In this document: in pieces, positions 17,092 to 39,436 of the stretch
Numbering within the stretch: the first letter of the stretch is position 1
Layout: each line of letters starts with the position of its first letter
Source of the DNA: Vicinamibacterales bacterium
Lineage (GTDB): Bacteria; Acidobacteriota; Vicinamibacteria; Vicinamibacterales; UBA8438
NCBI GenBank assembly: GCA_965218825.1
Contig: OZ244656.1
Span: 836,965-900,964 of the forward strand
Length of the DNA: 64,000 nt
Direction: 5' to 3'
The notes under the pieces: generated by a model
What the model was told of the DNA's origin: nothing
Seen by the model: the letters and a program-made list of their open reading frames with translations, nothing else
Database searches by the model: none
Position numbers and translations under genes: made by a program

Positions 17092-17838
17092 TCAGCGCCG
17101 GCGAGCGTGCACCTCGGCGGCGAGTTCCGCCGGCGACAGATGTGCCAGGCGCCGGGGACGCGAGTGCCATTCGCCGCGACGGTCACCCTGTCGGTCGGCG
17201 TTGACGATCCACCAGTGGCACCGGGGCGAGTCCGCGTACACGACGGGGTCGAGGCGGGACATCACCCGCGTGTCCCAGGTCGTGGGCAGGCATTGAAACC
17301 AGCCCTGTTTCGCCCGCCGCCGCGCCCGGCGGCGGGCCTTCTTGAGCGCCTCTGGCGTACCGGCAAGGGCCGTGCCGCGGAAGGCGCACGAGGCTTCGTC
17401 CAGCGCCTCGTCCCAGGTCAACCCGTAGGCGCGGCGATTCGCCTCGAGGCGGTCCGCGATCAGCCAGTCGTGACACGCCCGCCTGTGCGCCCGCGCCCAC
17501 GGTTGAAACCGGGCCGGGGCGGCAGGCCGCGTGCCCGTCGGCGGCGTGGCCCCCGGCACGAACTCGGAGAGCCAGCGCTCCAGCGCCGTCACGACCCAGG
17601 CCGGTACCGGGTCGCCATACTGAGAGCAGTGGCGCACGGCTTCCACCAGCGCCGCGGCGTCGCCGATCCGCCTGACGCCCCGCCGATACCCGGCGAGACG
17701 CCTGTGCTCGGGCACCCACGGCAGCCCAGCCCCGAGATTGGTCGTCCACCCCGTCTTCATCACGCCTCGTGTGCCGGTCTTCTGCCAGGGTCGCCCCCCA
17801 CGGCCACTGGGCGGGCGTGCCGCGCGCCGACGCGTCAT
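17092..17838 (-). CDS. Hypothetical protein (248 aa) co-oriented with and overlapping the integrase gene by 4 nt
   Basis: No motif recognised. Its position (int stop/start overlap) suggests co-transcription. Confidence 0.45.
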   Translation of the reverse strand: MTRRRAARPPSGRGGRPWQKTGTRGVMKTGWTTNLGAGLPWVPEHRRLAGYRRGVRRIGDAAALVEAVRHCSQYGDPVPAWVVTALERWLSEFVPGATPPTGTRPAAPARFQPWARAHRRACHDWLIADRLEANRRAYGLTWDEALDEASCAFRGTALAGTPEALKKARRRARRRAKQGWFQCLPTTWDTRVMSRLDPVVYADSPRCHWWIVNADRQGDRRGEWHSRPRRLAHLSPAELAAEVHARRR

Positions 17839-19025
17839 GGTCTACGCCCCAGCGCCGCCTGGATGGACGCGGCCGTCGCGTTGCTCGCGGCGCGCAGCGG
17901 ATCGTCCATCAGGTGGGCATACCGATGAGTGGTCGCCGCCTGCGTGTGGCCCAAGAGGGCCCCGATGACCGGTAAGGTGTGTCCGCTCGAGACCGCCACC
18001 GAGGCAAAGGAATGCCGCAGGTCATGGAGGCGCACATCCGCCAGGCGCGCCCGACGGCGCACCCACGCCCAGGGGGCGGCCAGGCTCACCCGGTGCTGCC
18101 CTGCGCGGACGCCGTGGCCCTCGCCGGGAAACACGAACGGCGAGGTCGCGAATCGCGGCCACCGCGTCAGCACGTCGACGGCGGGCGGGGACAGCAGAAT
18201 CGTCTTGCGGCCGGTCTTCGAATCGGGGAGGTGCAGCGCCCCACCCGCGAGGTCGACATCCGCCCACCGCAGCGACAGGATCTCCCCGACGCGCGCGCCC
18301 GTCAGCAGCAAGAGCCGAATCGCCGTGATAGCCGACGGCGGGATCGCGTCGTACCGCTCGGCGATCCGCAGCGCGGCACCCAGCCGCTTCAGCTCCGCCG
18401 GGCTCAGATAGCGCTGCCGCGCCGGCTCTGGATACTTTTCGACGCCTCGGCACGGATTCGAGCCGCCCGGCCGGTAGCCGGCATCCTCCGCCCAGTTCAG
18501 CAGCTTCGACAGCACGGCCAGCACCCGGTTCGCCAGATACGGGGTGGCGCGCAGGCGATGGTGCAACCGGAGCACGTCGGCCCGACGCAGGTCGGCGATG
18601 GCGAGGGGCCCAAACGTCGGCCGGATGTGGGCGTCCAGCGCCAGCCGATAGAGACGGCCCGTGGATGGCTTCCGCCGGGCCTCGACGTGCTCGCGCATAA
18701 AGCGGTCCCCGACGGCGGCCACCGTCGGGGCCTCACGGTCCACGTCCTGGCGCTCGAGCGGGTCGTCGCCGCCAGCCACCACGCCCAACAGCTGGCGCGC
18801 CCGGCGGCGCGCCTGGTCGAGCGGGATGACGCCCACCCGATCGATCGAGGCCCAGCGGACCCGGCCGGTCGCGAGGCGGTACTTGACGATGAACGCTTTG
18901 GTGCCCGCCGGCGACACCCGGACACCGAATCCGCGAAGCTCGCCGTCCCACGCCACGTACTGCCGCCCAGGCCGGGGTCTTAGGGCCTCGATCGTCCGCT
19001 GCTTCAGCCGACCTGCTGATTGCAC
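17835..19025 (-). CDS. Tyrosine integrase, P4-like (396 aa)
   Basis: N-terminal DUF4102-type LKQRTIEALRP..YVAWDGELRGFGVRVSPAGTKAFIVKYR. Catalytic end HDLRHSFAS...LLGHTQAATTHRYAH. Confidence 0.9.
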   Translation of the reverse strand: MQSAGRLKQRTIEALRPRPGRQYVAWDGELRGFGVRVSPAGTKAFIVKYRLATGRVRWASIDRVGVIPLDQARRRARQLLGVVAGGDDPLERQDVDREAPTVAAVGDRFMREHVEARRKPSTGRLYRLALDAHIRPTFGPLAIADLRRADVLRLHHRLRATPYLANRVLAVLSKLLNWAEDAGYRPGGSNPCRGVEKYPEPARQRYLSPAELKRLGAALRIAERYDAIPPSAITAIRLLLLTGARVGEILSLRWADVDLAGGALHLPDSKTGRKTILLSPPAVDVLTRWPRFATSPFVFPGEGHGVRAGQHRVSLAAPWAWVRRRARLADVRLHDLRHSFASVAVSSGHTLPVIGALLGHTQAATTHRYAHLMDDPLRAASNATAASIQAALGRRP

Positions 19026-19390: not shown

Positions 19391-19467
19391 GCGCCCGTCG
19401 CTCAGCTGGACAGCGCATCGGCCTCCTAAGCCGAGGGTCGCAGGTTCGAATCCTGCCGGGCGTGCCA
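19391..19467 (+). tRNA. tRNA-Arg (anticodon CCU)
   Basis: Cloverleaf by hand: acceptor gcgcccg/cgggcgt, anticodon arm tcggc-CTCCTAA-gccga, T arm gcagg-TTCGAAT-cctgc, discriminator G, encoded CCA. 77 nt. Confidence 0.85.
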
Positions 19468-19785: not shown

Positions 19786-20940
19786 TTACCAGCCCAGCGC
19801 GGCCCGGCCGAGCACCCCCGTGTCCACGCCGCCCTGCGTCGGACGCTCGCGGCGGTGGGCGTCGACGCCCAGCTCGACGTGCATGGCGCCGCGCTGCGCC
19901 ACCGTCAGGCCATAGCCCAGCCGGTAGGCGTGCCCGTATTCGGAGGTGCTGACGCCGACCCGCGGCGTCCCCACGAGCCGGCTCCCCACCGGTAGCCCGT
20001 AGCCGACCTCGCCGTCGAACCGGTTGCCCTGCGCGACGCCGCCGTGCGCCATGCCCGCCATCGTCTCCCGGCCCCACAGCGCCTCGGCGCCGCTGGTCGC
20101 CTGCCCGCCCCACGACGGCGCCACTCGCGCCACCAAGCCCAGCGGCGTCTGTGGCGTTGGGTTGTAGCTCAGCGACACCGCCACGCCCCGCTCGGAGAAG
20201 TCCTCGTCCTGGTGCACCAGCAGCATCCGCACCCGCACGTCCACCGCCAGCCCGGTCCCCGCATCCGACACCACCAGGCCCGCGCCCACGTCCATGCCCG
20301 CGCCCGTCTCGGCATCCCCGCCGTCGTGCCGCAGCCCCACCTCGACGCTCGGCGTCAGCGACAGCCGGCCAGCGAGCGTGTAGGCTCGCGAGCCTTCCAG
20401 CCCGGTCCGGAAGCGGGTGACCGCCGCGTCGGTCGCCTTCAGGCGTCCCGCCGGGCCGTCCACCCCGTCGATGGCCGTGCCGACCCATAGCGCGTCGGCC
20501 TTGAACGCCAGCGCGAAGCCGCTCGCGCCCCCGGCCACCAGCTCGCCCCGCGTGCCCGCCGCCGCCATCGCCATCGACAGACCCGACTCGAGCGCCTGCC
20601 CGCTGTCCGGCGTCAGCCGCAGCCCGCCGGTCCCGTAGCCGGCCACGCCCCACACCGTCACGCGCTCGGTCATCTTGTAGCCCAGCCACGGGTAGCACAC
20701 CTTCGCTTCGAAGCTGGTGCCTTCAGCATCGGCGGATACGACGTCGACGCTGCTCAGGGTGTAGCCGGTCGCATGCGGACCGGTCGTGAACCTCTGCGCG
20801 CCTCGGGTACTGAACTCACCGGTCAAGGTTGAACCCTGGCCGATGTTGCTGACCAGGGGGGTGACGCTCTGCGCCTGGGCCGTCGTCGGCAGCAGCAGGG
20901 CGAGCGCGCCAAAGAGTACGAGCAGCGCCGCGCCGGCCAT
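19786..20940 (-). CDS. Autotransporter-type outer-membrane beta-barrel protein with a short passenger (385 aa)
   Basis: Signal peptide MAGAALLVLFGALALLLPTTAQAQ. Alternating beta-strand pattern. C-terminal ..VLGRAALGW with a terminal aromatic residue. Start set at the internal Met, because the longer ORF begins inside low-complexity Pro/Arg sequence. Confidence 0.7.
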   Translation of the reverse strand: MAGAALLVLFGALALLLPTTAQAQSVTPLVSNIGQGSTLTGEFSTRGAQRFTTGPHATGYTLSSVDVVSADAEGTSFEAKVCYPWLGYKMTERVTVWGVAGYGTGGLRLTPDSGQALESGLSMAMAAAGTRGELVAGGASGFALAFKADALWVGTAIDGVDGPAGRLKATDAAVTRFRTGLEGSRAYTLAGRLSLTPSVEVGLRHDGGDAETGAGMDVGAGLVVSDAGTGLAVDVRVRMLLVHQDEDFSERGVAVSLSYNPTPQTPLGLVARVAPSWGGQATSGAEALWGRETMAGMAHGGVAQGNRFDGEVGYGLPVGSRLVGTPRVGVSTSEYGHAYRLGYGLTVAQRGAMHVELGVDAHRRERPTQGGVDTGVLGRAALGW

Positions 20941-21090
20941 CGCGCGGGACCCGGCCGGCCGTCCGGCGGCGGATGCGGCATATGTAGAAGGAGAAGGAGA
21001 AGGTAAGGAACCGCCGCCCCGGCGGGGCGGCCGGCGATCAGGCGGCGATGGCGGGCGGCGTTGCTCCCGCGGCCGAGGCGCCGTCATGGC

Positions 21091-21175
21091 CTCGGCTCGG
21101 CTCGGCTCGGCTCGGCTCAGCTCAGCTCAGCTCAGCTCAGCTCAGCTCAGCTCAGCTCAGCTCAGCTCAGCTCAG
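21091..21175. repeat. Pentanucleotide tandem repeat (CTCGG)x5 followed by (CTCAG)x12
   Basis: Read directly: 17 perfect 5-nt units over 85 bp. It lies in the divergent intergenic region between the autotransporter gene and the RHH/PLD-helicase genes. Confidence 0.95.
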
Positions 21176-21518
21176 AATAGCCGACTCAAAACGCTCGCTG
21201 GATGTCAAGTCTTTTGTCGAGTCGTCCATCCCTGTTCTTCCTCCGCGCCGTTCCGACCGGAGAAATCGCGCGCGCAAGGCGACGGCTCCGATCGTGCTCA
21301 CCGTCTCGTTCTCACCGTCGTCCCCTGCCGATTTCAGCCGCGCCCCATGACACCGGCGTCTCGGGCGTCGTCGAGGTGTCGAACGACACTTGACCGCCGA
21401 GCGTCCGTCCGGAACGTCGAACGCACCCATAAGCCCACATACCCTTGCTACCACGCAGCTTACACGCGCCTCACTGATTCGGAAAACTGAAAGAATTTGC
21501 CCTCTGGCACAATATGAT

Positions 21519-21791
21519 TTGGCCAAATGCGCGGCCCAGAAAATCAGCGATCGTCGCCTTTCGGTGGCTCTCGATGAGAGAGAATACGAGGAACTGGCGC
21601 GCCTCGGCGCAGAACTCAACCTGTCGGCTGCGTAGTTGATCCATCTGGCCGTCCAGGAGTTCGTGGCGCGGCACGGCGACGGCATCGTGCCCGACCTGCC
21701 GTTGCGCCACCCCAGAAACCGAAGCGGGCGACGGCAACAAAACGGAAGGATCGCATGGCGCATGACCCACCAGTGCAGGACGACCTCGTAA
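21519..21791 (+). pseudogene. Ribbon-helix-helix (CopG-like) regulator interrupted by an in-frame TAG
   Basis: ..RRLSVALDEREYEELARLGAELNLSAA*LIHLAVQEFVARHG. The TAG at 21633-21635 sits where RHH proteins usually carry Trp (TGG). TTG start proposed at 21519. Confidence 0.5.
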
Positions 21792-22751
21792 ACGTCGCAC
21801 CGGAACTAACGCTGCGGTCGCTGAAGGGAGTCCGGCCACTCTACATGCTGCCAGCCGACCCGCTGGCCGAGGAAGTCCTGATTCCCGGATTCCAGTCTGC
21901 CGGAAAGGTCGACTGCATGGTGGGCTTCTTTTCAAGCGAGGTGCTTGCCTCGCTTGCGCCAGGCCTCGCCACCTACATCTCCGGCTCCGAAAACAGCTTC
22001 CGGCTCATCATCAGCCCTCTGCTCCGGGCCGAGGACCAGGTCGCCATCGAGGACGGGCTGAACTCCGCGGAAGAGACCGCGGACAGAATTCTCGAAGAGC
22101 TGATCGTCACCGAAGACCTACTCCAGCGGCATACTTTGAAATGCCTGTCGTGGCTCCTACGCGAAGGGCGAATCGAGATCAAGGTCGCCCTGATGAAAGA
22201 CGCGCTCTTTCATCCGAAGGTGTGGCTCTTCGAGAACGGCAGCGATGTCGTCGCCGCGCACGGTTCGAGCAACGTGACCTATGCGGGCATACGGAAGAAC
22301 ATCGAGCAGATCGCGATCTCGAGATCGTGGCAGGACGCGAACCAGCGCTACATCACTGACAAGCTGGGTTACGAATTCGGCCGCCTGTGGGAGAACAAGG
22401 ACGATAACTGTCTCGTCATCGGCATGCCCGAGGCGGTCCGTCAACGGCTGTTGCGGACCTACAGCTCGGAAACACCTCCGACCGAAGACGATCTGAGAGC
22501 TTTGTACGGCCGCGCGGCAGGGGTTCCGGAAGAGCCGGAGCCTTGCGAACCGGCTTCTGTTCAGCACACAGGATTCGCCATACCGGGCTGGCTGCAATAC
22601 GAAGACGGCCCGTTCGAACACCAGAGCAAGGCCGTCGCGGCGTGGTGCGCAGCCGGACATCGCGGCGTGCAGGAAATGGCGACGGGCTCGGGCAAGACGA
22701 TCACCTCGATGATCGGCGCGCACCGTCTCTATGAACAAGACAAGCCGCTGC
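21755..22751 (+). pseudogene. PLD-family nuclease domain fused to an SF2 (type III restriction Res-like) helicase, truncated after helicase motif I
   Basis: HKD-type FHPKVWLFENG...AHGSSNVT, then EMATGSGKTITSMI (Walker A). Similarity ends at ..YEQDKPLL, where IS-derived sequence begins. Confidence 0.7.
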
Positions 22752-22990
22752 TAGTCCCCGAGGGGATCGACAGACGCGGCAGTCGTACTACGATGCCGAG
22801 CATGCGAGGAGACGACCGCCAGCCTGACGCTCTGTTTAGTTACGTGTCCGCCGAACAGCGGGTCCCGAAGAATCATCCGCTGCGCCGAATTCGCGCGCTG
22901 GTCGACGAGGTCCTGCACGACATGAGCCGGGAGCTCGACGGGCTCTACACCCCGCTCCGCTGGGCCCCCAGCGTGGTTGAGAATCCGTCC
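22752..22990 (+). mobile_element. IS1182/IS5-superfamily fragment (5' region and first ~45 codons of the transposase)
   Basis: ALFSYVSAEQRVPKNHPLRRIRALVDEVLHDMSRELDGLY (DUF772-type N-terminus). The upstream gaggggatcgaca...gtcgtactac resembles the left end of the IS at 48838. Confidence 0.6.
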
Positions 22991-23101
22991 ATGCACTAAC
23001 ATGCCAACTGGACCACCCGATGGGAGCTGGTCAAGTCTCTTGGCCCTGTCGTGTACCCTCCATTTCACCCGCGTTGCGGTGAACACGACGCACACTAGGC
23101 G

Positions 23102-26100
23102 GTGAGCACGATGCGACACGTTACAGGTTCCATCAGGTGGTTGCACTTGTCCGATCTACACATCGGGCACAAGGAACACGTAGGGCGACTGCCGAACCTT
23201 CGGGAGATCTTTTTCAACGATCTGCGTGAGCTTCACGACTCGTCGGGACCTTGGCACCTAGTCCTGTTCTCGGGGGATATCGTCAACACAGGCACGAAGC
23301 AGGAGTTCGACGCTGCCACGGAGTTCCTAACCGAAGCGTGGGAGGTTATGAAGTCCCTCGGCTCCACACCGCGTCTTGTCGCATCACCAGGCAACCACGA
23401 CATCCATAGGCCACGAACCAAGAACAACCCATCATTGAGGGCATTCCGTAACTGGCACGCGGATCACGAACTTAGGCAGGAATTCTGGACTTCCTCTAGC
23501 AGTGCCTACCGAAAGCTAGTTGAAAGGGCATTCGCTTCCTACTGTGAATGGTACGATAACCTCCCGCTTCCAAAGCTCTTGGACGTGAGTCAGGGCCTCT
23601 TACCTGGCGACATGGCGGCTCGGGTCACGATTGACGGCCTGCGTGTTGGCGTGGTGTGTCTTAATTCTTCGTTTCTCCAACTAACTGGCGACGATTATAA
23701 ACGTCGACTGGACCTAGACGTCAGACAATTGGCGAACGTCTGCCAACTGAATCACATTAGGTGGCTGGAGGAAGTCGACCTTGCATTCCTATTGACGCAT
23801 CACAGCCCGGCCTGGCTCGAACCCGATAGGCGACGTGAGTTCGATGCTGAGGTCTACCCTCCTGGGCGTTTCTACTCCCACATTTGTGGACACCTGCATG
23901 AACCCGAAGCCACGGACCACAGTGTTGGTGGCGCCGAGGTTCGTCGTACTCGTATAGGGGCGTCGCTCTTCGGATTAGAGCGATCTGCTAAAAATGTGGG
24001 AAGACGGCATGGCTACTCTGCCGGCCAGATCACCTTGACCCCCAGTGGAGAACTACTTGAGAGCATGTGGCCACGGCTGACAAAACAAGGCCAAGCTGGA
24101 AACGTGCGCTTCGTCCCGGATCACCAGTATCAACTTGATAAGAACCAGGCAGTCACATGGTCATCACAACGACTAGTGCCCCCGCCTTCAGGGTCAAATG
24201 CTGCTCCATCTCAGTCCGACAGCGTGGAAGGTGAATTCTCGCTCCTCGCTGACGTGTCCGAGGCGGCGGCCACGACAGCGCTACAAATGGTACCCCGCAC
24301 TCGGCTGGAGTACGGGCCGCAGCATCGTAGGATCCGCCGCCAGGAACAATTAACAGCAGAGCAGCTGCTCCATGAGAAACGGCACGTCTGGGTGATTTCG
24401 GACTGGGGCTTGGCAACCCGTGAGTTCGTTGCCTCGTTCGTTGCTGCGTTTGGGGAATACAACGATCTGAGCTCCAACGACGTCTTCTCTGTCCAATGCG
24501 ACGAGGTCGTCAGCACTCATGCTCTTCGGGAATCAATCCACAAGCAGCTCGGTGTGACGGCACAGCAGCTTTTCAGCCGTGCTGCAGGATTGCCGTTTTG
24601 TCTGCTCGTGCTTGAAAACCTGTCCTTGGAATTGACAGGTGACGCTCCTGTTGCCGCAGACAATGACATCCGCTCAGTTCTTCAGTCGTTTCTCGACTAT
24701 TGCCCGTCTCTTCATATAGTTCTCACTGCTAGGTACTCGCCACAGTGGGATGTGCCTGTAGTCGAGTTACGGGCGCTCGAATTGCCAGATGTGAGGACCT
24801 ATGTTCAGCATCACCCGACCGGAGGTGACTCCCTCACCGACGTCGAAACGATAGAGATTCTGCATCGTTGTTCAGCTGGATTGCCAGTTCATCTTGATCG
24901 CTTGCTTGACTCACTGCGCTATGTGGGGCGAGAAGAACTGGGAGAGTTCGAACTGGATACGCAAAGTGACGCTCACGAGGAGGTGCCACACTCTCTAGAA
25001 CGTGCCGTGACGGAACTTGCGAATTCACCGGCTCGGTACTCCAAGCGCAGCTATCGTCTACTGAAGATTCTTACGCTCCTACCGGACGGCGAAAGGCTAG
25101 AGCAGCTCAAGCATTTCGACGGGACCGAGCCGCTCTTTCCAAGGAACGCTGCCGAATTGGAGGATCTCTCGCTGCTTCAGGTCGTGCAAGATACAGACTT
25201 GCTGTTGGCTCGGTCCACATCCTCGCAAGCGGTTCCTGGTCCTACGAAACGCCTTCTCGTTCCTCGACAGGTCCGCGATTTCGTCCGGACACTGATGTCG
25301 GATGCGGAGCAAAGAGAGATATACGAACGAGCTGCTGAGATTGTGTTCGGCGCAGACTGGCGGAATGGAAACCTGAGAAGCAGATACTTCGCCGAGTCTG
25401 CTGTGGGCAGACGCAATGAGAGCGTCATATTCAAGCGCCTGCTGGCGGACGCAATTGAAATGGCCGATCAGACTCGGGCCCAACGGATAACGCAGTTGAT
25501 TGCCGGTGTAGTCGATGGACTGGATGGCAAGGATAGATATCGAGAGGCGAGCGTAATCATCAAAGAGCTGCTGCCGCTGGTGCGCAGGGTGGACGACAAG
25601 GCATCTGAGAGTACGATCTTGAAAGTCCACGGATCATCGCTACGAATGCTAGGTCACGCGGACGATGCAGCAACCGTGTTGGAGCAGCTTCTGAACGATG
25701 GGGAGATGGAACTGGAAAAGCAGGAACTCCTGAGCGTACAGACGGATCTGGCCTTCATATATGAGCGAAGGAAGAACAAAAAGCACGCGGTGCGAGCAGC
25801 GCAGGAAATTCAACGCTTGTCGCCACGGAAGTCATCAGGCAAGTATCTTGAAGCGGAAGCCATCATTGCAAACATGACTCTCGAGGACGCAGAACGCGTC
25901 AACAAATTGAAGAGCGTAGAGCGACGGGCAAGACAACACGAACGTACAATGGTTGCGAACAACACCGCTTTGACGTTGTCGCGCCTTAAGGAAGCGGGTC
26001 CCGCTGAGTTGTGGCAGCAGCGTGTGATCGACTCAAAGGGCAACCAGTACAACCGTCTCAGGGCTATAGTGGCGAAGGCCAATCGGTTGATAGCTCTTGG

Positions 26101-26416
26101 CAAGAGCTCATCGCTGTCCCCCGAAGAGCACGGAGTATTGGTGATGGGCTACAGCTACTTGTACGCGCAACGCATGACGAGTTTGTTCCGAAGATGTCAC
26201 GGTGCATTGTGGAAAATATTGATGAGTGAACGGCGACTGGGGGACTTGTTGAGGATCTTTCGCCATAGTTCCTTCTTGTGGCGGTTGTATGGCGAGGTGG
26301 ATACTGAACGGCAGTACTACAACGAGCTGGAACGCTTGGAGCTTGACGATATCACCCGCTCTGGAGGTATTGATGCAGTGTACTTCGAAGCCAGGAGACT
26401 GGAACTGAGGGCGTAG
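23102..26416 (+). CDS. Large metallophosphoesterase-domain protein with a helical/TPR-like C-terminal two thirds (1104 aa)
   Basis: Calcineurin-like motifs LSDLH, FSGDIVNTG, SPGNHD, LLTHH, ICGHLHE in the first ~300 aa. The central region has STAND-like strand/helix spacing, but I could find no Walker A. The C-terminus is repetitive helical. The region is AT-richer than the flanks. Confidence 0.75.
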   Translation: MSTMRHVTGSIRWLHLSDLHIGHKEHVGRLPNLREIFFNDLRELHDSSGPWHLVLFSGDIVNTGTKQEFDAATEFLTEAWEVMKSLGSTPRLVASPGNHDIHRPRTKNNPSLRAFRNWHADHELRQEFWTSSSSAYRKLVERAFASYCEWYDNLPLPKLLDVSQGLLPGDMAARVTIDGLRVGVVCLNSSFLQLTGDDYKRRLDLDVRQLANVCQLNHIRWLEEVDLAFLLTHHSPAWLEPDRRREFDAEVYPPGRFYSHICGHLHEPEATDHSVGGAEVRRTRIGASLFGLERSAKNVGRRHGYSAGQITLTPSGELLESMWPRLTKQGQAGNVRFVPDHQYQLDKNQAVTWSSQRLVPPPSGSNAAPSQSDSVEGEFSLLADVSEAAATTALQMVPRTRLEYGPQHRRIRRQEQLTAEQLLHEKRHVWVISDWGLATREFVASFVAAFGEYNDLSSNDVFSVQCDEVVSTHALRESIHKQLGVTAQQLFSRAAGLPFCLLVLENLSLELTGDAPVAADNDIRSVLQSFLDYCPSLHIVLTARYSPQWDVPVVELRALELPDVRTYVQHHPTGGDSLTDVETIEILHRCSAGLPVHLDRLLDSLRYVGREELGEFELDTQSDAHEEVPHSLERAVTELANSPARYSKRSYRLLKILTLLPDGERLEQLKHFDGTEPLFPRNAAELEDLSLLQVVQDTDLLLARSTSSQAVPGPTKRLLVPRQVRDFVRTLMSDAEQREIYERAAEIVFGADWRNGNLRSRYFAESAVGRRNESVIFKRLLADAIEMADQTRAQRITQLIAGVVDGLDGKDRYREASVIIKELLPLVRRVDDKASESTILKVHGSSLRMLGHADDAATVLEQLLNDGEMELEKQELLSVQTDLAFIYERRKNKKHAVRAAQEIQRLSPRKSSGKYLEAEAIIANMTLEDAERVNKLKSVERRARQHERTMVANNTALTLSRLKEAGPAELWQQRVIDSKGNQYNRLRAIVAKANRLIALGKSSSLSPEEHGVLVMGYSYLYAQRMTSLFRRCHGALWKILMSERRLGDLLRIFRHSSFLWRLYGEVDTERQYYNELERLELDDITRSGGIDAVYFEARRLELRA

Positions 26417-26449: not shown

Positions 26450-26700
26450 CCCTGAATCCGGACCATAGGATGGTGGACGTTCGAGCGCTTTGGAAGGCGC
26501 TGCCATGCAGAAGTCGTTGGTTACGGAGCGTCAGATCGTTGGCATCCTGAAGAAAGGTGCGAGGCGGGCGTTCCGATCGCGGACTTGGTGCGCCAGCACG
26601 GCATCAGTCGCGCGACGTATCTCAACTGGCGGTCGAAGTACGCGGGGGTAGTGTTCCCGAAAAGTAGACGGCCGGTAGCTGGATCTTCAGCGCCTTGACG
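26450..26700 (+). mobile_element. IS3-family left-end remnant with a frameshifted orfA
   Basis: tgaatccggaccatagg.. (TG-start IR-like). ATG at 26505: MQKSLVTERQIVGILKK, then a frame change to ..VPIADLVRQHGISRATYLNWRSKYAG. Confidence 0.55.
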
Positions 26701-27164: not shown

Positions 27165-28121
27165 ATGTTTAAAACACGAAACCTGTTGGATGCCATAGGC
27201 GCATCTGGACATGCGACGATGCAAAAAGAGTTTTGGCGTGCACGCCTAATGGACCCAGACCAAACGTTCTTTGACCAGTTTTCACAACCACCACAGGTGC
27301 TTTACAAATACATCCCTGCACATCGATTGGACGATGCTCTGCCTGACGAGAAGCCGTGTTCTTTCTGCGCTACGCCGCCCAACGAATTAAACGACATCAA
27401 TGAGATCAATTTTAAAACCTCGTTCGTTGATGACGAGAGGAATCGCGAGAACATCAATCGAGAGTACGCTTTAACCCTGACCGAACTATGCCCAACATCG
27501 CCAATCTCTGTCGATGATGTGGAAAGATATCGCCAGAAACATCCTCTTGGGTATGGAGCCGAACTGACCTGCGACCAGTTGTCGAAACGATACGGAGTCA
27601 CATCATTTTCGACTAGTAAAAATGATGTGAAAATGTGGTCGCATTACGCTGACGATTGCAGAGGCGTTGTCATTGGCTACAACGTCGACCGTTGGGTGAG
27701 GCACCTATTCGGCACTTCGATAATCAGACAGGTGAAATACGCGGATGACCTTCCTATAGTTATAGGCCCGCGCGTTGTCAACCAAGAAAACGCATATGCA
27801 TTCATGGCTAGCAAAGGAGCCGCTTGGGAGTATGAACAAGAGTGGCGCTTGATTACCGAATTGTCGAAAACACAGCAGTCTGGAAAGGATATTGCGGTCA
27901 TTACCGTCCCTCAAGAATCTGTGTCGTCCATCCTTATCACTGATCGCACTTCGCAGGACACAGTGGACATCATTGTTCGGCGGCTGAACAATCCGTCGAA
28001 CGACTATCGAATATGGTGGATTGACAAGATGCAAAGAGGGCGCGATGCGACCACATTAACCTTCATGGGACAGATGAAAACGCGCGCATCGAGCACGATA
28101 AGGCCTTGCTCCGAGTCATGA
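27165..28121 (+). CDS. DUF2971-like protein (318 aa)
   Basis: LYKYIPAHRL, KMWSHYADDCRGVVIGY and GAAWEYEQEWRLI match my recollection of DUF2971 hallmark motifs. Markedly AT-rich. Confidence 0.6.
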   Translation: MFKTRNLLDAIGASGHATMQKEFWRARLMDPDQTFFDQFSQPPQVLYKYIPAHRLDDALPDEKPCSFCATPPNELNDINEINFKTSFVDDERNRENINREYALTLTELCPTSPISVDDVERYRQKHPLGYGAELTCDQLSKRYGVTSFSTSKNDVKMWSHYADDCRGVVIGYNVDRWVRHLFGTSIIRQVKYADDLPIVIGPRVVNQENAYAFMASKGAAWEYEQEWRLITELSKTQQSGKDIAVITVPQESVSSILITDRTSQDTVDIIVRRLNNPSNDYRIWWIDKMQRGRDATTLTFMGQMKTRASSTIRPCSES

Positions 28122-28425: not shown

Positions 28426-29589
28426 CTAACGATCCACACCTCTGCCTCGAATCACATTTGACAATCCCTCTTCGAGCCGACCGAGGCCAAAGAAGAAGTC
28501 GTCCGACTCCTCGTCTTCGTCCGGGGCCATGCGAGCATTCAGGACGGCTCTGAGCGCCAGGTTGTAGACGACGAGCGCCAAGTCAACCAAACGTGCTCGG
28601 TTGGCAGACCGGCCGAACCTAAGGTCAAGCTGCTCTACCGGATTGCCGTGGAGGAAGAGATTTCTCGCCCGGTACATGTTGTCGTAGATTCTCGCGGGCA
28701 GGGCTACCTTGTAGCTGTGGCTTCTGTGTTGAACGTTGAACCGCTTGCGTGTCAGTCTGGAGTTTGAAAGCTCGACTGCACCAATTGCCTCTTGCACTAG
28801 CCGCTTGTCGATGTTGTCTGTGTCGGAGCGGAGAAGCACTTCACATGCGCTGACCCAGAGGCCGATTCGAGTACCTATGTCGTTGATACTTGATAAGCCA
28901 TCACTCGGGAATCGGCCAGCCTGAAACCCGACTTCCAGCGACCGAAACAGCCTGAGCCACGGCTGCTGCGCTGGCTGTTCCAGGTAGTTCTCCTCCCACG
29001 CCCGGAGTAGTCGCTTCAAGAGCACCAGATCGACGTCAAGCGAGAACCCATCCGGCAGACCAATCTGGCTTGAGCACTGACCGGCGAAGTGTTCTACATC
29101 GTCATCCATGCCCCCGACGGGACCATCAAGGTTCTGGATCCACCCGTTCTTGGCAGCAACGAAGGATGAAAATAGGAAAAAGTCGCTGTAGAGGGGACGC
29201 CATTGCCCATTCCCCTCGCTGGCAAGCGCCAGGGCCATGGTGTGAGTAATGGTGGAAATCGCGCAAACATTTCTGAATGCGCGAAGCGCGTCAGCGGCGA
29301 GCAAGGGCCCTGGCGCGTCATGGCGAACCAGCAAGCATCCTGGCGAGTACGGTTTCTGAAACCAGTTCCGATACTGCGCGAGCATTCTCCGAGCCGTGTT
29401 GTCCGCCGGCGAATCGGCAACCATACTCAGACGCGGATCTGTCGCTGAACACAAGCACAGGTAGTCGGAGACGAACGGACTGGGGACGGGCGGATTCAGA
29501 TTCGGAAGAATGAAGAAGATGCACCATTCCGCGTCCGTGTGAGGCGATGTCTCCGGAACGACCTCAGCCATGAATGCTGTGTTGGTCAC
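28426..29589 (-). CDS. Hypothetical protein with a C-terminal HEPN-like Rx4H motif (387 aa)
   Basis: ..IYDNMYRARNLFLHGNPV.. (R-N-x3-H) in a predicted helical C-terminal region. No other motif recognised. Confidence 0.45.
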   Translation of the reverse strand: MTNTAFMAEVVPETSPHTDAEWCIFFILPNLNPPVPSPFVSDYLCLCSATDPRLSMVADSPADNTARRMLAQYRNWFQKPYSPGCLLVRHDAPGPLLAADALRAFRNVCAISTITHTMALALASEGNGQWRPLYSDFFLFSSFVAAKNGWIQNLDGPVGGMDDDVEHFAGQCSSQIGLPDGFSLDVDLVLLKRLLRAWEENYLEQPAQQPWLRLFRSLEVGFQAGRFPSDGLSSINDIGTRIGLWVSACEVLLRSDTDNIDKRLVQEAIGAVELSNSRLTRKRFNVQHRSHSYKVALPARIYDNMYRARNLFLHGNPVEQLDLRFGRSANRARLVDLALVVYNLALRAVLNARMAPDEDEESDDFFFGLGRLEEGLSNVIRGRGVDR

Positions 29590-29803: not shown

Positions 29804-30424
29804 TTATCGCTTATCCGTGAGACGCCAGAGAAACCACGCGGCGACGCTCCGAAGTGGACGCCACACTTCGGAGCGGGTCATGAGGAACTCCGGCGTTGGA
29901 CGCTCATCGAGCCCGTCCAGGACCCGAAGACCCTCCTGAACCCCGAGGTCGCCGCCAGGCATCACGTCGAGTCGACCAAGCTTGAAGATGAGAAACATCT
30001 GTGTCGTCCATTCTCCGATGCCCCAGACCGTTGTGAGCCTCCGGGTGACCTCATCGTCCGCAAGGCGCCCGATACTCCTCAGTCCGAGCTCCCCCCTCAC
30101 GGTCTTCTCCGCGAGATCCTTCAGCGCTCGCGCCTTATGCCCCGAGAGGCCAGCCCCTCGCAGCTCTTTGTCAGACAACGCCAATACGTGCTCGGGCACA
30201 GGGAAGCGGGGCCCCGGCGCCAGACTCCTGACACGACCGTAGATGGTGGCGGCAGCCACAGTCGCAAGCTGTTGGTAGATGATGGAACGGGCCAAGGCGT
30301 GGAAGTGCGAGCCGCGGAGCTTCCCGACCGGAAAATCTGGAAAGGGCGGGAGACCATTCATGGCCTTCGCGAGAACAGGATCCCGGCGCTTCAGCGCCCT
30401 CATCTCGGCCGTGGTTGGTTTCAT
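29804..30424 (-). CDS. DNA-3-methyladenine glycosylase II-like HhH-GPD protein (206 aa)
   Basis: LSGHKARALKDLA, TVWGIGEWTTQMFLIF, DVMPGGDLGVQEGL (HhH plus Gly/Pro-rich loop and catalytic Asp). Confidence 0.8.
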   Translation of the reverse strand: MKPTTAEMRALKRRDPVLAKAMNGLPPFPDFPVGKLRGSHFHALARSIIYQQLATVAAATIYGRVRSLAPGPRFPVPEHVLALSDKELRGAGLSGHKARALKDLAEKTVRGELGLRSIGRLADDEVTRRLTTVWGIGEWTTQMFLIFKLGRLDVMPGGDLGVQEGLRVLDGLDERPTPEFLMTRSEVWRPLRSVAAWFLWRLTDKR

Positions 30425-30969
30425 GACTCGCCGAGTTGCGTCAGGGGCACGACGTCCCCCCGTCTTCAGTAGCGGATCAGTCTAGGGAGCCGTTCGCCTT
30501 TGAGACGCGGGCGCGGACGCCGTCGGGCGCGCGCCGCTGTGTGTCGTATCCCGTGTCTGATTCTATGTCTTCAAGACGTCAAGCGAACGAGCATGGCACG
30601 GAGACCCGTTCTGGCAAGCCGGCAGCGGTCGACCCTGTTTTCCCTTCCGCCACGTGAGGCGGACCTGCGGCGTCACGACACTCTGCCTCCGACGCCAAAG
30701 GCGGAAGGAGGATTCCCCCGCAACCTATCTACCGAAGGTATTCTTTGGCGAGATATCCAATCTCACCGCAGGCTTGCGTCATTTCGGATGAGCCGGGGGG
30801 AGCGCGCCGAGCAGATCGACCTGCGTGTTGAACGCCCCACGATCAGATCGGCGAGCGCGCCTCTGGTCGTTGCTGGCGGTGCGCGCCTCCCCGAGAAACC
30901 GCGCCCACGCCCAGTGCCGGGCCTCCAGCGTGATGATGCTGTCGGTTCTTCGGGCAATATCGTGCAGGG

Positions 30970-31542
30970 TCATTTCACGACGCCTCTGCCGGTGAGCCGC
31001 GCCCAACGGTCCACCGACCCAGGTGAGGCCTCGACGGCGATCAGGCGCTGATGAATGCGCCCAACCGCCCGGCGCGCAGCGGCCGGCTTGGGATCGCCCG
31101 CCCAGAACAGCGCCTGATCGATGATGCTCTCCCAGCCCTCGAACAGCGTCATGCCTATGCCGAGGTCCCGCGACCACTCCGCAAGACTGGCACGGTCCAG
31201 CGGCGTTTGACCATCGGCGACCGCGACCACCGCGGCCTCGCGAACTCCCATGCTCACGCACTTGCTGCCGAAAATCTGAACGTCCGACATGGAGACGGGC
31301 TTGTCCCTGATCTCGAACGCCTTCTCCCAGACATCCGCAGCGTCGACCGCGCGCACGCAGACGTCTCCGGGATGCCTGCGGCTGGGATCGTTGACGCGTC
31401 CGCTCTCCACGCGCTCGGGACTCGCGAACGTGTCCATCAACCCGGCCACGACCGCCTGGGCGAGGCGCCCGCCCTCCGCCCCATCCCGCACAAGCGATTG
31501 GGAGCCGTCCGCCTCTGAGACGCGGGCGTAGCCGATCAGCAT
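30970..31542 (-). CDS. Hypothetical protein with a serine-recombinase-like first 17 residues (190 aa)
   Basis: MLIGYARVSEADGSQSL mimics a resolvase N-terminus, but the remainder shows no resolvase motifs. Confidence 0.4.
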   Translation of the reverse strand: MLIGYARVSEADGSQSLVRDGAEGGRLAQAVVAGLMDTFASPERVESGRVNDPSRRHPGDVCVRAVDAADVWEKAFEIRDKPVSMSDVQIFGSKCVSMGVREAAVVAVADGQTPLDRASLAEWSRDLGIGMTLFEGWESIIDQALFWAGDPKPAAARRAVGRIHQRLIAVEASPGSVDRWARLTGRGVVK

Positions 31543-31709
31543 GTGTCGTAAACAGTCGTTGGACTAAACCGCTTCGCGGTAGACGGTAAATCGATAACCC
31601 GATCGTAAGACGCGCATCCGGGTTGTCCTTCCGACTCGGCATCTCTACTCCTCCCATACGCTCCTCACCGACGTCTGGCATCCACCAGGCCCTTTCGAGA
31701 GGAGCCGTC

Positions 31710-39286: not shown

Positions 39287-39436
39287 GACAGGAGAGGTCG
39301 CTACTCGCTGCTGGAACTACGTTGGTCCATATCGATTTCCGTGCATAGAATAGCATCGATCGAATCAGTACCGGGCAATACTTATCGACTTGAATTAATC
39401 AAGACGGTACCTGTCGGTACCATAAGGGGAAGTGTG

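What the first reader, a model, noticed from the sequence alone, without database searches (positions are those of the whole stretch)
23102..26416. 1104-aa metallophosphoesterase fused to a degenerate STAND-like/TPR region in an AT-rich insert
**Seen in sequence**
- All five calcineurin-like phosphoesterase motifs are in the first ~300 aa.
- A ~250-aa region follows whose spacing resembles an NTPase/STAND core, but I can see no GxxxxGK[ST].
- The C-terminus is ~450 aa of repetitive helical (TPR-like) sequence.
- The gene sits alone between IS fragments (22752-22990; 26450-26700). It is next to a truncated PLD-helicase and upstream of DUF2971 and HEPN-like genes, and is visibly AT-richer than the surrounding DNA.

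**Inference**
- An effector (phosphoesterase acting on DNA or nucleotide signals) plus a sensor-repeat architecture is the logic of Avs/NLR-like single-gene defence proteins. This particular fusion is not one I can name.
Basis: partly seen in the sequence, partly recalled or inferred. Interest (0 to 1): 0.65.

Follow-up and report, generated by a model that had tools for sequence, protein, structure and literature searches.

The report
NLR-like phosphoesterase defence protein lacking P-loop
This is an intact 1101-residue gene in a decayed defence island that looks like a one-protein antiviral sensor: a nucleotide-attacking phosphoesterase head, a switch domain of the animal/plant NLR type that has lost its ATP-binding motif, and a helical-repeat sensor tail. 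It is a new variant of a kind of immune protein that is already known.

Summary
ORF 23102-26416 (probable ATG start at 23111, 1101 aa) is intact. It carries all five calcineurin-like phosphoesterase motifs in aa 1-345.

**Anatomy**
- An AlphaFold2 model of aa 398-735 (pLDDT 85) matches CED-4, Apaf-1, ZAR1 and Avs3. This is an NBD-HD1-WHD STAND module.
- Aa 736-1101 are a TPR solenoid (pLDDT 92).

**P-loop**
- The Walker A motif is missing across the whole family. None of 154 full-length cluster representatives has GxxxxGK[ST].
- The P-loop position reads [DE]WG[LM]Gx[DE][GE]F. Profile alignment places this on the GxxGxGKT of NACHT-bearing relatives.

**Modularity**
- The same head domain is fused elsewhere to NACHT, NB-ARC, AAA_35, WD40, TIR, CHAT and kinase modules.
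- The same pseudo-NOD+TPR chassis occurs with SIR2. It is fused in some Enterobacterales/Vibrio plasmid proteins and is a separate gene downstream of SIR2 in others.

**Context**
- No partner gene is conserved.
- All nine loci read gene by gene lie in defence islands, integrative conjugative elements (ICEs), plasmids or IS-rich DNA.

**Closest validated relative:** DS-8 (metallophosphatase-NACHT). This protein is not a DS-8 or PDC-S60 member.

**Most likely function:** an Avs/NLR-like abortive-infection sensor whose Calcineurin-CE-type head depletes nucleotides, working without canonical ATP binding. No experiment supports this yet.

**Verdict:** new variant of a known kind; interest 0.55.

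The parts
23111..26416 (+). Whole gene: 1101-aa MPE / pseudo-NOD / TPR protein. ATG start preferred; the GTG at 23102 opens the ORF; the stop codon is included.
   Evidence: ORF listing and translation. Full-length alignment to 30 homologues with no frameshift. At least 150 full-length 50%-identity clusters in the representative library.
23111..24145 (+). aa 1-345: calcineurin-like metallophosphoesterase effector domain of the Calcineurin-CE / DS-8 / DS-9A type, with a conserved C-terminal extension (SLFGLE...R.HGY...WPR).
   Evidence: Pfam PF00149, E 9.5e-13. NCBIfam DS8 N-terminus E 2.5e-16 and DS9_1 E 2e-12. PADLOC PDC-S60 N-terminus E 1.6e-16. All five catalytic motifs invariant. This is the most conserved part of the protein, 2.09 bits per column.
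24146..24301 (+). aa 346-397: variable, low-conservation linker.
   Evidence: Mean information 0.76 bits per column, many indels.
24302..24775 (+). aa 398-555: nucleotide-binding-domain fold of a STAND module. It contains the HxxIRxxEQ helix (R409), a pseudo-P-loop, a Walker-B-like strand (LLVLEN, aa 498-503) and the sensor-1 strand (IVLTAR, R541).
   Evidence: AF2 model: strand-loop-helix at aa 425-451 plus four further strands. Foldseek hits to CED-4, Apaf-1, PAB2304 and ZAR1. hhalign against NACHT relatives Prob 89.6 and against NB-ARC relatives Prob 91.7.
24389..24427 (+). aa 427-439: pseudo-P-loop WVISDWGLATREF. The family consensus is W-h-h-[SAT]-[DE]-W-G-[LM]-G-x-[DE]-[GE]-F. It has neither the Lys nor the Ser/Thr of Walker A.
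   Evidence: 0 of 154 family representatives have GxxxxGK[ST]; column counts. hhalign places it on G-x-p-G-x-G-K-T of NACHT relatives. hmmsearch starts just after GPPGIGKT of P0110.
24776..24970 (+). aa 556-620: helical domain HD1 with a GLPL-like motif (S588-A-G590-L-P592-V-H-L-D-R-L-L).
   Evidence: G590 in 153/154 and P592 in 148/154. Aligned to GGLPLAIE of NB-ARC relatives and to GHPLML of the STAND protein PH0952, 6mfv.
24971..25315 (+). aa 621-735: winged-helix domain, with LLKxLSxLPxGE and hVPRxVRDYV motifs.
   Evidence: AF2 model shows helices plus a beta hairpin. Foldseek alignments of 380-390 columns to CED-4 and Apaf-1 NOD modules, spanning the whole modelled stretch. Conservation data.
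25316..26413 (+). aa 736-1101: TPR-like alpha-solenoid, the presumed sensor. Its C-terminal block is strongly conserved (CHxxLW ... LFRHSSFxWRL, aa 1029-1059).
   Evidence: AF2 pLDDT 92, 21 helices. Foldseek hits LGN, IFIT1, OGT and Rap TPRs. The profile hits consensus TPR at E 6.6e-5. Sub-threshold Pfam and PADLOC TPR hits. Conservation peak at aa 1003-1062.
22799..22957 (+). Left boundary: remnant of an IS5-family transposase N-terminus, read in frame with the truncated upstream gene.
   Evidence: tblastn against plasmids: 60% identity, E 1e-12, features annotated 'IS5 family transposase'.
26505..26650 (+). Right boundary: frameshifted remnant of an IS3-family orfA (HTH_Tnp_1).
   Evidence: Sequence and ORFs. 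Pfam HTH_Tnp_1 E 2.1e-8 on a manually frameshift-repaired translation.

Best explanation
The gene encodes a stand-alone, NLR/Avs-like antiviral sensor-effector protein.

**Proposed sequence of events**
1. In the resting state the C-terminal TPR solenoid and the NOD (NBD-HD1-WHD) hold the protein closed.
2. A phage-derived ligand, most likely a protein bound by the TPR solenoid, releases the closed state and drives oligomerisation through the NOD.
3. Oligomerisation brings together and activates the N-terminal Calcineurin-CE-type metallophosphoesterase domains.
4. The activated heads hydrolyse phosphoester or phosphoanhydride bonds in nucleotides. Candidate substrates are dNDP/dNTP pools, NAD+ or a nucleotide signal. 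The outcome is arrest of phage replication, that is, abortive infection.

**The twist in this family**
- The NOD has lost the Walker A Lys and Ser/Thr in every member sampled. The switch therefore probably does not rely on canonical ATP binding or hydrolysis.
- The conserved [DE]WG[LM]G..F loop presumably stabilises the fold or binds something else.

**What is shown and what is inferred**
- Shown: the domain folds and motifs, loss of the P-loop, modular reuse of both head and chassis, absence of a conserved partner gene, and location in mobile or defence DNA.
- Inferred: the defence function, the trigger, the substrate, oligomerisation, and ATP independence.
For: **Catalytic head**
- The five motifs are invariant.
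- The domain matches the N-terminal metallophosphatase of the validated systems DS-8 and DS-9A.
- In DS-8 the phosphatase catalytic residues and the NACHT ATPase residue are both needed for defence (PMC13092281).
- In PUA-Cal-HAD, Calcineurin-CE converts dADP to dAMP and cleaves NAD+ in vitro, and the system depletes dNTPs (bioRxiv 10.64898/2026.01.15.699771).

**NOD**
- AF2 model pLDDT 85.
- Foldseek: CED-4 at E 3e-8 and TMq 0.58, then Apaf-1, PAB2304, ZAR1, RPP1 and Avs3.
- hhalign to the NACHT and NB-ARC modules of relatives sharing the same head: Prob 90-92, E about 1e-6.
- PH0952 is the best PDB sequence hit.

**Loss of the P-loop**
- 0 of 154 representatives have it.
- Relatives in the SIR2 branch keep GK[ST].

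**TPR sensor:**

**Effector modularity**
- The head is fused elsewhere to NACHT, NB-ARC, AAA_35, WD40, LRR-Roc, TIR, CHAT and kinases.
- The chassis is fused to or paired with SIR2.

**Genomic context**
- DUF499/DUF1156/AAA_15/SNF2 island.
- DpnII + CTD12/DUF2326 + KAP NTPase.
- AAA_21-RloB and a relaxase.
- Inside ICEs.
- Beside CBASS.
- IS, integrase and methyltransferase genes.
- HNH and PIN genes.
- In the window: truncated PbeA, PDC-S31 and IS remnants.
- Among 148 neighbour ORFs at 40 loci, no family recurs more than 3 times.

**Precedent for a working STAND with degenerate ATPase motifs:** KpAvs8 (PMC13581612).
Against: - No experiment exists on this family.
- Neither PADLOC 2023 nor NCBIfam (June 2026) has a full-length model for it.
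- In DS-8 the NACHT ATPase residue is essential, so a P-loop-less version might be non-functional as a switch or might work quite differently.
- The TPR region is not hypervariable. It is conserved across phyla, with a very conserved C-terminal block, which is less typical of arms-race sensors.
- Some loci sit beside housekeeping genes such as lepA, an RNA polymerase subunit gene and DAHP synthase.
- The window's own copy deviates from the family pseudo-P-loop consensus: A435 where most have G, R437 where most have D/E.
- The substrate is unknown. By sequence, the nearest solved MPEs are a mixture of cyclic-nucleotide phosphodiesterases and the Mre11/SbcD nucleases.
- I did not obtain a statistical defence-neighbourhood enrichment with a control.
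Confidence: 0.6

Rival explanations
1. Same NLR-like defence protein, but the head is a nuclease. It would resemble Mre11/SbcD and degrade phage and/or host DNA or RNA on activation, rather than deplete nucleotides.
For: Profile hits to solved structures include SbcD/Mre11 nucleases (E 1e-4 to 6e-3). NCBIfam gives a weak sbcD hit. PADLOC's second hit is an 'Effector - Endonuclease' model (E 7e-10).
Against: The stronger and longer matches are to the DS-8 and DS-9A metallophosphatases. For this clade the only biochemistry available is nucleotide hydrolysis: dADP to dAMP and NAD+ cleavage. The Mre11/SbcD matches cover only motifs I-III (profile positions 3-94). No Mre11 capping or DNA-binding domain was detected.
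Confidence: 0.2
2. The NOD still binds a nucleotide or related ligand through the non-canonical loop, and the protein works as an ordinary ligand-gated STAND switch. It would be ATP/ADP- or dNTP-dependent.
For: The loop is strongly conserved rather than decayed: W427 146/154, W432 143/154, G433 142/154, F439 148/154. The upstream R409, the counterpart of the STAND 'GR-E' helix, is present in 151/154. A Walker-B-like acidic residue is kept in 129/154 and the sensor-1 Arg in 122/154. Sister SIR2-linked proteins keep GK[ST].
Against: The Lys position is variable (K in only 27/154). The Ser/Thr position is acidic in 120/154, which should repel phosphate and remove Mg2+ coordination. Pfam detects no P-loop family.
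Confidence: 0.2
3. Not an immune protein. It would be a regulated phosphodiesterase or phosphatase of mobile elements or of cellular signalling, for example cyclic-nucleotide turnover controlled by a TPR/NOD scaffold. Its link to islands would be mere hitch-hiking.
For: The nearest solved enzymes include the cyclic-nucleotide phosphodiesterases Lmo2642 and Rv0805 and the phosphodiesterase GpdQ. The TPR tail is conserved rather than diversifying. Some neighbours are housekeeping genes. STAND-TPR regulators such as MalT and PH0952 are not immune proteins.
Against: The head domain family occurs overwhelmingly on STAND, TIR, CHAT and WD40-type conflict architectures, and two members are validated defences. 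The chassis is alternatively coupled to SIR2, a classic NAD+-depleting defence effector. The phyletic pattern is patchy, with different neighbours even at 85% identity (against the window). All nine loci read gene by gene are in ICEs, plasmids or defence islands.
Confidence: 0.12
4. The window copy is a dead remnant of a decayed island, flanked by IS fragments and next to a truncated PbeA, and has no current function.
For: IS5 and IS3 remnants lie on both sides and the upstream defence gene is truncated. No convincing promoter was found upstream. A435 and R437 deviate from the family consensus.
Against: The ORF is full-length, with every catalytic and family-invariant residue intact. Relatives at 81-93% identity from other samples are also full-length, which implies purifying selection.
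Confidence: 0.05

Closest known systems
DS-8 (DefensePredictor system; DeWeirdt, Mahoney & Laub, Science 2026, PMC13092281; NCBIfam NF053861)
   Same: A single-protein system of about 1000 aa with an N-terminal metallophosphatase followed by a STAND-class NTPase. The heads are homologous (E 2.5e-16 to the first 234 profile positions). Defence by DS-8 needs the phosphatase catalytic residues.
   Different: DS-8 has a NACHT with an ATPase residue that is essential. Here the NOD lacks Walker A. The match to the DS-8 model stops after the head (58.6 bits against a cut-off of 790). The tail here is a TPR solenoid with its own conserved motifs. This family is untested.
Avs / bacterial NLR-like STAND pattern-recognition receptors (Avs1-24, bNACHT; PMC13581612)
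   Same: A tripartite architecture of N-terminal effector, NBD-HD1-WHD and TPR-like sensor. The gene stands alone, effectors are swapped, and the location is defence islands and mobile elements. Avs3 is among the structural matches. KpAvs8 shows that degenerate Walker motifs occur in a functional Avs.
   Different: No AVAST/Avs model in PADLOC matches. Loss of the P-loop is fixed across a whole widespread family rather than seen in single members. No trigger is known. The sensor is unusually conserved.
PUA-Calcineurin-CE-HAD / DS-9 (bioRxiv 10.64898/2026.01.15.699771; NCBIfam NF053862)
   Same: A homologous Calcineurin-CE-type phosphoesterase used as the immune effector (E 2e-12). It provides the only biochemical model for the head: dADP to dAMP, NAD+ cleavage, and dNTP depletion on ligand-induced assembly.
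   Different: That system senses m6-dAMP through a PUA domain, needs a HAD partner and forms filaments. Here there is no PUA, no HAD neighbour, and a NOD+TPR instead.
SIR2-linked relatives of the same chassis (unnamed; 'SIR2 family protein' of about 1010-1040 aa, or a SIR2 gene followed by a 593-702 aa hypothetical protein, on Enterobacterales/Vibrio plasmids and chromosomes)
   Same: The pseudo-NOD+TPR chassis is homologous from HxxIRxxEQ to LFRHSSxxWRL (BLASTP E 4e-47 over aa 405-1090). Context is defence-like: beside CBASS, TrlF ATPase, HEPN and IS elements.
   Different: The effector is SIR2_2, either fused or encoded as a separate upstream gene. The P-loop mostly keeps GK[ST] ([CAS]GWGYGK[STA]GF). 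There are no PADLOC or Pfam hits for the chassis, and no PADLOC Dsr or AVAST model matches the fused form.
PADLOC candidate PDC-S60
   Same: The best PADLOC hit. It shares the N-terminal phosphoesterase (E 1.6e-16) and is of similar length (profile 1027).
   Different: Only profile positions 2-248 align. The rest of the protein is unrelated at HMM level.

Membership tests
Calcineurin-like metallophosphoesterase superfamily (PF00149) | Five metal-binding/catalytic motifs: DxH, GD, GNH[DE], H, GHxH | tested here: met
   D15/H17, G55-D56, G94-N95-H96-D97, H230, G260-H261-x-H263. All are invariant or nearly invariant in 31 sequences. Pfam 49.4 bits against a cut-off of 21.5.
Calcineurin-CE / DS-8-DS-9A-type immune phosphoesterase clade | Closer to the DS-8/DS-9A heads than to housekeeping MPEs, and located in the effector position of conflict-system architectures | tested here: met
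   The best NCBIfam hits are the DS8 head (E 2.5e-16) and DS9_1 (E 2e-12), against sbcD at 4e-4. Homologous heads at 40-47% identity sit N-terminal to NACHT, NB-ARC, AAA_35, WD40, TIR and CHAT. The original definition (Nicastro et al. 2023) could not be read.
DS-8 anti-phage protein (NF053861, equivalog) | Full-length match above the curated cut-off (790 bits) | tested here: not met
   58.6 bits; only profile positions 1-234 of 994 match.
DS-8 anti-phage protein (NF053861, equivalog) | NACHT NTPase with a functional ATPase motif (essential in DS-8) | tested here: not met
   No GxxxxGK[ST] in the window protein or in 154 family representatives.
PADLOC PDC-S60 | Full-length coverage of the 1027-position profile | tested here: not met
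   Only positions 2-248 are aligned.
STAND NTPases (NOD module) | NBD-HD1-WHD three-domain fold | tested here: met
   AF2 model pLDDT 85. Foldseek: CED-4 E 3e-8 (TMq 0.58), plus Apaf-1, PAB2304, SSO1545, ZAR1, RPP1, Avs3 and NLRP2/7; 216 hits at E<=1e-3.
STAND NTPases (NOD module) | Walker A GxxxxGK[ST] | tested here: not met
   The window has SDWGLATREF. Family consensus is [DE]WG[LM]Gx[DE][GE]F, with 0/154 canonical. The position was verified by hhalign and hmmsearch against P-loop-bearing relatives.
STAND NTPases (NOD module) | Walker B hhhhD[DE] | tested here: inconclusive
   The window has LLVLEN. Across the family the first acidic position is D 107, E 22, N 11, and the second is D 64, N 41, E 20, of 154.
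STAND NTPases (NOD module) | Sensor-1 Arg (hhhTSR) and the GxP/GLPL motif of HD1 | tested here: met
   R541 in 122/154, G590 in 153/154, P592 in 148/154. Aligned to ITSR and GGLPLA of NB-ARC relatives and of PH0952.
STAND NTPases (NOD module) | Nucleotide binding and nucleotide-dependent oligomerisation | not testable with these tools
   Needs biochemistry. The motif pattern predicts loss of canonical binding.
Avs (antiviral STAND) pattern-recognition receptors | N-terminal effector + STAND + C-terminal TPR-like sensor in one stand-alone gene | tested here: met
   Domain map. No conserved neighbour among 148 flanking ORFs.
Avs (antiviral STAND) pattern-recognition receptors | Match to a described Avs family model | tested here: not met
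   No AVAST/Avs model among PADLOC hits at E<=1. Newer Avs7-24 models were not available.
Avs (antiviral STAND) pattern-recognition receptors | Activation by a phage protein and protection against phage | not testable with these tools
   Requires a phage challenge and a trigger screen.
TPR repeat proteins | Helix-turn-helix repeats forming a solenoid; matches to TPR profiles | tested here: met
   The model has 21 helices, pLDDT 92. Foldseek hits LGN, IFIT1, OGT and Rap. The family profile hits consensus TPR at E 6.6e-5. Pfam TPR hits for the single sequence are below cut-off.

The most novel reading that the evidence does not exclude
This is a widespread NLR-type immune chassis, with at least 150 clusters at 50% identity across Proteobacteria, Bacteroidota, Verrucomicrobiota, Acidobacteriota and Clostridia. 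In this reading it has given up the nucleotide switch altogether.

- The P-loop has been rebuilt into a conserved Trp/acidic loop.
- A branch-specific basic residue, R719 in the winged helix, co-occurs with that loop.
- Together they might replace ADP as the latch of the closed state, or might bind a different ligand.

The same chassis drives either a Calcineurin-CE phosphoesterase in cis or a SIR2 enzyme, fused or as a separate subunit. It would therefore be a generic, ATP-independent 'sensor-switch' cassette for nucleotide- or NAD+-depleting effectors.
Probability: 0.3. Interest if true: 0.75.

Novelty: new variant of a known kind. Interest (0 to 1): 0.55.

Why it matters
**The ATP question**
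- STAND/NLR receptors in animals, plants and bacteria are thought to depend on an ADP/ATP switch.
- A large, well-conserved family that keeps the NOD fold but has lost Walker A would be a natural test case for what the nucleotide is really needed for.
- The sister SIR2-linked branch still carries GK[ST], so a comparison is available within one chassis.

**A candidate defence family**
- It adds a candidate single-gene defence family with a Calcineurin-CE effector. This effector class was validated only in 2025-2026 (DS-8, DS-9, PUA-Cal-HAD), and for DS-8 the substrate is still unknown.
- It links that family to an unnamed SIR2 system common on Klebsiella, Proteus, Citrobacter and Vibrio plasmids.

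**Annotation**
- These proteins are currently labelled only 'metallophosphoesterase', 'SIR2 family protein' or 'hypothetical protein'.

Tried and rejected
**Searches that gave little or nothing**
- The search for related loci with the middle-domain alignment failed because no stretch was conserved enough. The full-length alignment worked.
- phmmer of the head alone against PDB sequences gave only chance hits. The family profile was needed.
- The search for homologous proteins with the C-terminal alignment returned only 5 fragments, so it said nothing about other effectors on the chassis.
- The promoter/terminator scan around the gene found no more sites than in shuffled sequence.
- A search for a second copy of the tRNA-Arg 3' end, as an island attR, found none. 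The island boundaries are undefined.

**Hypotheses tested and dropped**
- hhalign of the middle domain against the AAA_35-type relatives gave no similarity (Prob 0.3). The NOD here is of NACHT/NB-ARC type, not AAA_35 type.
- A second 1141-aa ORF near the homologue in L002 is unrelated.
- The 'HEPN-like' neighbour at 28426-29589 has no Pfam or PADLOC match.
- I considered whether the SIR2-fused relatives are Dsr1/Dsr2 or Avs5. PADLOC gave only SIR2-domain-level hits (Aga SIR2, PDC-S65) and no Dsr or AVAST model. A comparison with the Avs7/Dsr1 sensor could not be made because no sequences or structures were available.

**Things that could not be done**
It rests on one branch-level co-occurrence.
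- The paper that defines Calcineurin-CE (Nicastro et al. 2023) is not held. 'PDC-S60' appears in no held paper.
- A per-protein count of defence hits among neighbours, with a control, was not possible.

Full report

Yes. The window holds an uninterrupted ORF at 23102-26416 on the + strand. Homologues start about ten residues before the WLHLSDLH motif. The ATG at 23111, preceded by AGGCGG, is therefore the likely start and gives 1101 aa. All residue numbers below use that start.

- GC is 0.55-0.58 across 23-27 kb. It is 0.62-0.73 on the left and 0.64-0.69 at 30-34 kb.
- The gene is bracketed by two IS remnants:
  - an IS5-family transposase N-terminal remnant at 22799-22957 (tblastn 60% identity, E 1e-12);
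  - a frameshifted IS3 orfA remnant at about 26505-26650 (HTH_Tnp_1, E 2e-8 after manual repair).
- Upstream lies a PLD-helicase cut off after about 334 residues. It is a PbeA homologue (PADLOC E 4.6e-68, profile positions 11-301 of 672).
- Downstream lies a DUF2971 / PDC-S31 gene.

**2. Anatomy**

- *aa 1-345: calcineurin-like metallophosphoesterase.*
  - Pfam E 9.5e-13.
  - All five motifs are present and invariant or nearly so in the family: D15-x-H17, G55-D56, G94-N95-H96-D97, H230, G260-H261-x-H263.
  - The best library matches are the N-terminal metallophosphatases of DS-8 (NF053861, E 2.5e-16), DS-9A (NF053862, E 2e-12) and PADLOC PDC-S60 (E 1.6e-16). In each case only the head matches.
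- *aa 346-397: a variable linker*.
- *aa 398-735: STAND NOD module.*
  - Modelled from a 29-sequence alignment, with pLDDT 85 and pTM 0.80.
  - The model has a strand-loop-helix, four further strands, a helical bundle and a winged helix.
  - Foldseek against the PDB returns CED-4 (E 3e-8, TMq 0.58), Apaf-1, the archaeal ATPases PAB2304 and SSO1545, ZAR1, RPP1, NLRP2/7 and Avs3. This is an NBD-HD1-WHD module.
  - Sequence profiles agree. The best PDB sequence hit is the STAND-TPR protein PH0952.
  - hhalign against the NTPase regions of relatives carrying the same head gives Prob 89.6 (E 1.9e-6) for NACHT-type and Prob 91.7 (E 7.8e-7) for NB-ARC-type. There is no similarity to the AAA_35 type.
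- *aa 736-1101: TPR-like solenoid.*
  - 21 helices, pLDDT 92.
  - Foldseek matches TPR solenoids: LGN, IFIT1, OGT and Rap.
  - The family profile hits consensus TPR at E 6.6e-5.

**3. The missing P-loop is a property of the family**

- A profile search of 1.84 billion cluster representatives finds at least 150 full-length clusters at 50% identity. The list is truncated at E<1e-205.
- None of the 154 full-length representatives and close relatives has GxxxxGK[ST] in the relevant region.
- The P-loop position reads W-h-h-[SAT]-[DE]-W-G-[LM]-G-x-[DE]-[GE]-F:
  - the Lys position is variable (K in 27/154);
  - the Ser/Thr position is acidic in 120/154;
  - W427, W432, G433 and F439 are each kept in more than 92%.
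- hhalign lays this loop directly on G-x-p-G-x-G-K-T of the NACHT relatives. hmmsearch alignments begin just after GPPGIGKT of P0110.
- Other STAND landmarks survive: R409 in the helix before strand 1 (151/154), a Walker-B-like acidic residue (129/154), the sensor-1 Arg R541 (122/154), and G590-x-P592 of the GLPL-like motif (153 and 148 of 154).
- The window's own loop, SDWGLATREF, is a slightly divergent version, with A435 and R437.

**4. Both halves are reusable modules**

- The head, at 40-47% identity, sits N-terminal to AAA_35, NACHT, NB-ARC+TPR, WD40, LRR-Roc, kinase, TIR, CHAT and FGE-sulfatase modules in other proteins.
- The pseudo-NOD+TPR chassis is homologous over aa 405-1090 to the C-terminal two thirds of a 1038-aa 'SIR2 family protein' on a Citrobacter IncHI1B plasmid (BLASTP E 4e-47). 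All signature motifs are shared, from HxxIRxxEQ to YRTSSILWRL.
- In Klebsiella, Enterobacter, Proteus and Vibrio parahaemolyticus plasmids the chassis is a separate 593-696 aa gene directly downstream of a gene of about 300 aa encoding SIR2_2. In Pantoea it stands alone between IS elements.
- Fused and split forms are common in Enterobacterales.
- None of these chassis proteins matches PADLOC 2023 or Pfam, apart from one sub-threshold AAA_22 hit.
- In the SIR2 branch the P-loop is [CAS]GWGYGK[STA]GF, so GK[ST] is mostly retained. Loss of Lys and Ser is therefore specific to the phosphoesterase branch.
- That branch also has a basic residue, R719, in the winged-helix motif hVPRxVRDYV, where the SIR2 branch has Leu or Val.

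**5. Genomic context**

- Neighbours were read from 148 ORFs at 40 of the 41 full-length loci from GTDB genomes with usable flanks (Proteobacteria, Bacteroidota, Verrucomicrobiota and Clostridia among them). No family recurs in more than 3 of these 148 ORFs.
- Among the neighbours are LmuB, AriA, SduA, a type I specificity subunit, PDC-S06/S18/S26/S49 and an SLFN/AlbA_2 protein. There are also housekeeping genes such as lepA.
- Nine loci read gene by gene all lie in mobile or defence DNA:
  - beside DUF499/DUF1156/AAA_15/SNF2 (an 85%-identical relative whose neighbours differ from the window's);
  - beside DpnII, CTD12/MC6/DUF2326 and a KAP NTPase;
  - beside AAA_21-RloB and a relaxase;
  - between TraC and TraU of a Pseudomonas ICE;
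  - inside a Burkholderiales conjugative element;
  - beside a patatin-CD-NTase CBASS;
  - beside an IS, integrases and methyltransferases;
  - beside HNH and PIN genes;
  - the window itself.
- One member is on a Rhizobium plasmid. None is in the phage collection.

**6. How it most likely works**

The shown facts fit the Avs/NLR logic. They are an intact effector enzyme, a NOD, a TPR tail, swappable effectors, no partner gene, and mobile or defence locations.

The inferred chain of events is as follows.
1. The TPR tail binds a phage component.
2. The NOD opens and oligomerises.
3. The clustered phosphoesterase heads become active.
4. Nucleotides are destroyed and infection aborts.

- The substrate is inferred from relatives. 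In PUA-Cal-HAD the Calcineurin-CE domain converts dADP to dAMP and can cleave NAD+, and the system collapses dNTP pools.
- For DS-8 the authors suspect a cyclic nucleotide, but the substrate is unknown.
- Pairing of the same chassis with SIR2, an NAD+-consuming effector class, fits a nucleotide- or NAD+-depletion theme.
- Because the Walker A Lys and Ser/Thr are absent, I infer that switching does not use canonical ATP binding. KpAvs8 is a precedent for degenerate Walker motifs in a working Avs.
- Rivals are listed separately: a nuclease head, residual non-canonical nucleotide binding, a non-immune regulated phosphodiesterase, and a dead gene.

**7. Comparison with what is known**

- It works like DS-8 and like Avs proteins, but it is not a member of DS-8: 58.6 bits against a cut-off of 790, no NACHT match and no Walker A.
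- It is not a member of PDC-S60 (head only), nor of any PADLOC AVAST model.
- It belongs to the metallophosphoesterase superfamily and, at domain level, to the Calcineurin-CE / DS-8 / DS-9A clade.
- It has the STAND fold but fails the Walker A criterion.

**8. Novelty and limits**

- The kind is known: a single-protein STAND/NLR-like defence with a metallophosphatase effector.
- The variant is new to the libraries and papers I could search. It combines a family-wide P-loop-less NOD, a distinctive conserved TPR tail, and a chassis shared with fused or split SIR2 systems.
- Broad computational surveys that I could not read (Nicastro et al. 2023; supplementary tables of PMC13581612) may already list it.
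- No function was tested.
- The neighbourhood evidence is descriptive, without a statistical control.
- The conserved rather than hypervariable tail is somewhat atypical for an arms-race sensor.

Noticed in passing
L090:4948-8064; L092:2676-5710; L093:2253-5374; L095:2292-5266; L096:2496-5467; L094:3470-5404: An unnamed SIR2-linked system on Enterobacterales/Vibrio plasmids uses the same NOD+TPR chassis. SIR2 is either fused (about 1010-1040 aa) or encoded as a separate gene of about 300 aa directly upstream of a 593-702 aa 'hypothetical protein'. The chassis has no PADLOC or Pfam match. Its P-loop mostly keeps GK[ST].
   Followed up: partly
window 21755-22999 (+): Truncated PbeA-like PLD-helicase (phosphorothioation-sensing defence, PADLOC E 4.6e-68). 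It is cut after about 334 of about 672 residues and reads through into an IS5 transposase remnant.
   Followed up: partly
window 27165-28121 (+): DUF2971 protein matching the PADLOC single-gene defence candidate PDC-S31 (E 2.5e-27), in the most AT-rich kilobase of the island (GC 0.49).
   Followed up: partly
window 35370-36350 (-) and 34512-35360 (-): A DndB/DpdB-like protein (Pfam DndB E 7.8e-10; PADLOC DpdB E 3e-14) followed by an unannotated 282-aa ORF, in another low-GC patch (GC 0.51-0.59).
   Followed up: no
window 38915-40507 (+): A 530-aa ORF whose residues about 195-290 match the N-terminus of PD-Lambda-5_A models (best E 7e-9). An adjacent 428-aa ORF (37713-38999, - strand) has a sub-threshold B12-binding domain hit (22.6 bits against a Pfam cut-off of 32.1).
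   Followed up: no
window 17835-19025 (-) and 19391-19467 (+): A tyrosine integrase (Arm-DNA-bind_3 + Phage_integrase) lies next to tRNA-Arg(CCT). No second copy of the tRNA 3' end exists in the window, so the island's far boundary is not marked by an obvious att repeat.
   Followed up: partly
window 14751-15863 (-), 31623-32579 (+), 32589-33797 (+): Two IS91-family (Y2_Tnp + Zn_Tnp_IS91) transposase genes bracket the region. The right-hand one is preceded by a tyrosine recombinase, an arrangement typical of IS91/ISCR-like elements with an accessory integrase.
   Followed up: no
window 29804-30424 (-): A HhH-GPD base-excision glycosylase gene inside the low-GC island.
   Followed up: no
proteins P0047, P0049, P0071, P0080, P0083, P0085, P0093, P0094, P0108: 9 of 14 sampled relatives with the same phosphoesterase head fused to an AAA_35 module also lack a G.{4}GK[ST] match in residues 300-700. 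Loss or alteration of the P-loop may therefore be recurrent among phosphoesterase-headed STAND-like proteins.
   Followed up: no
window 19786-21087 (-), 21167-21763 (-), 28426-29589 (-), 30779-31795 (-), 36648-37499 (-): Several sizeable ORFs in the island have no Pfam or PADLOC match at all.
   Followed up: partly
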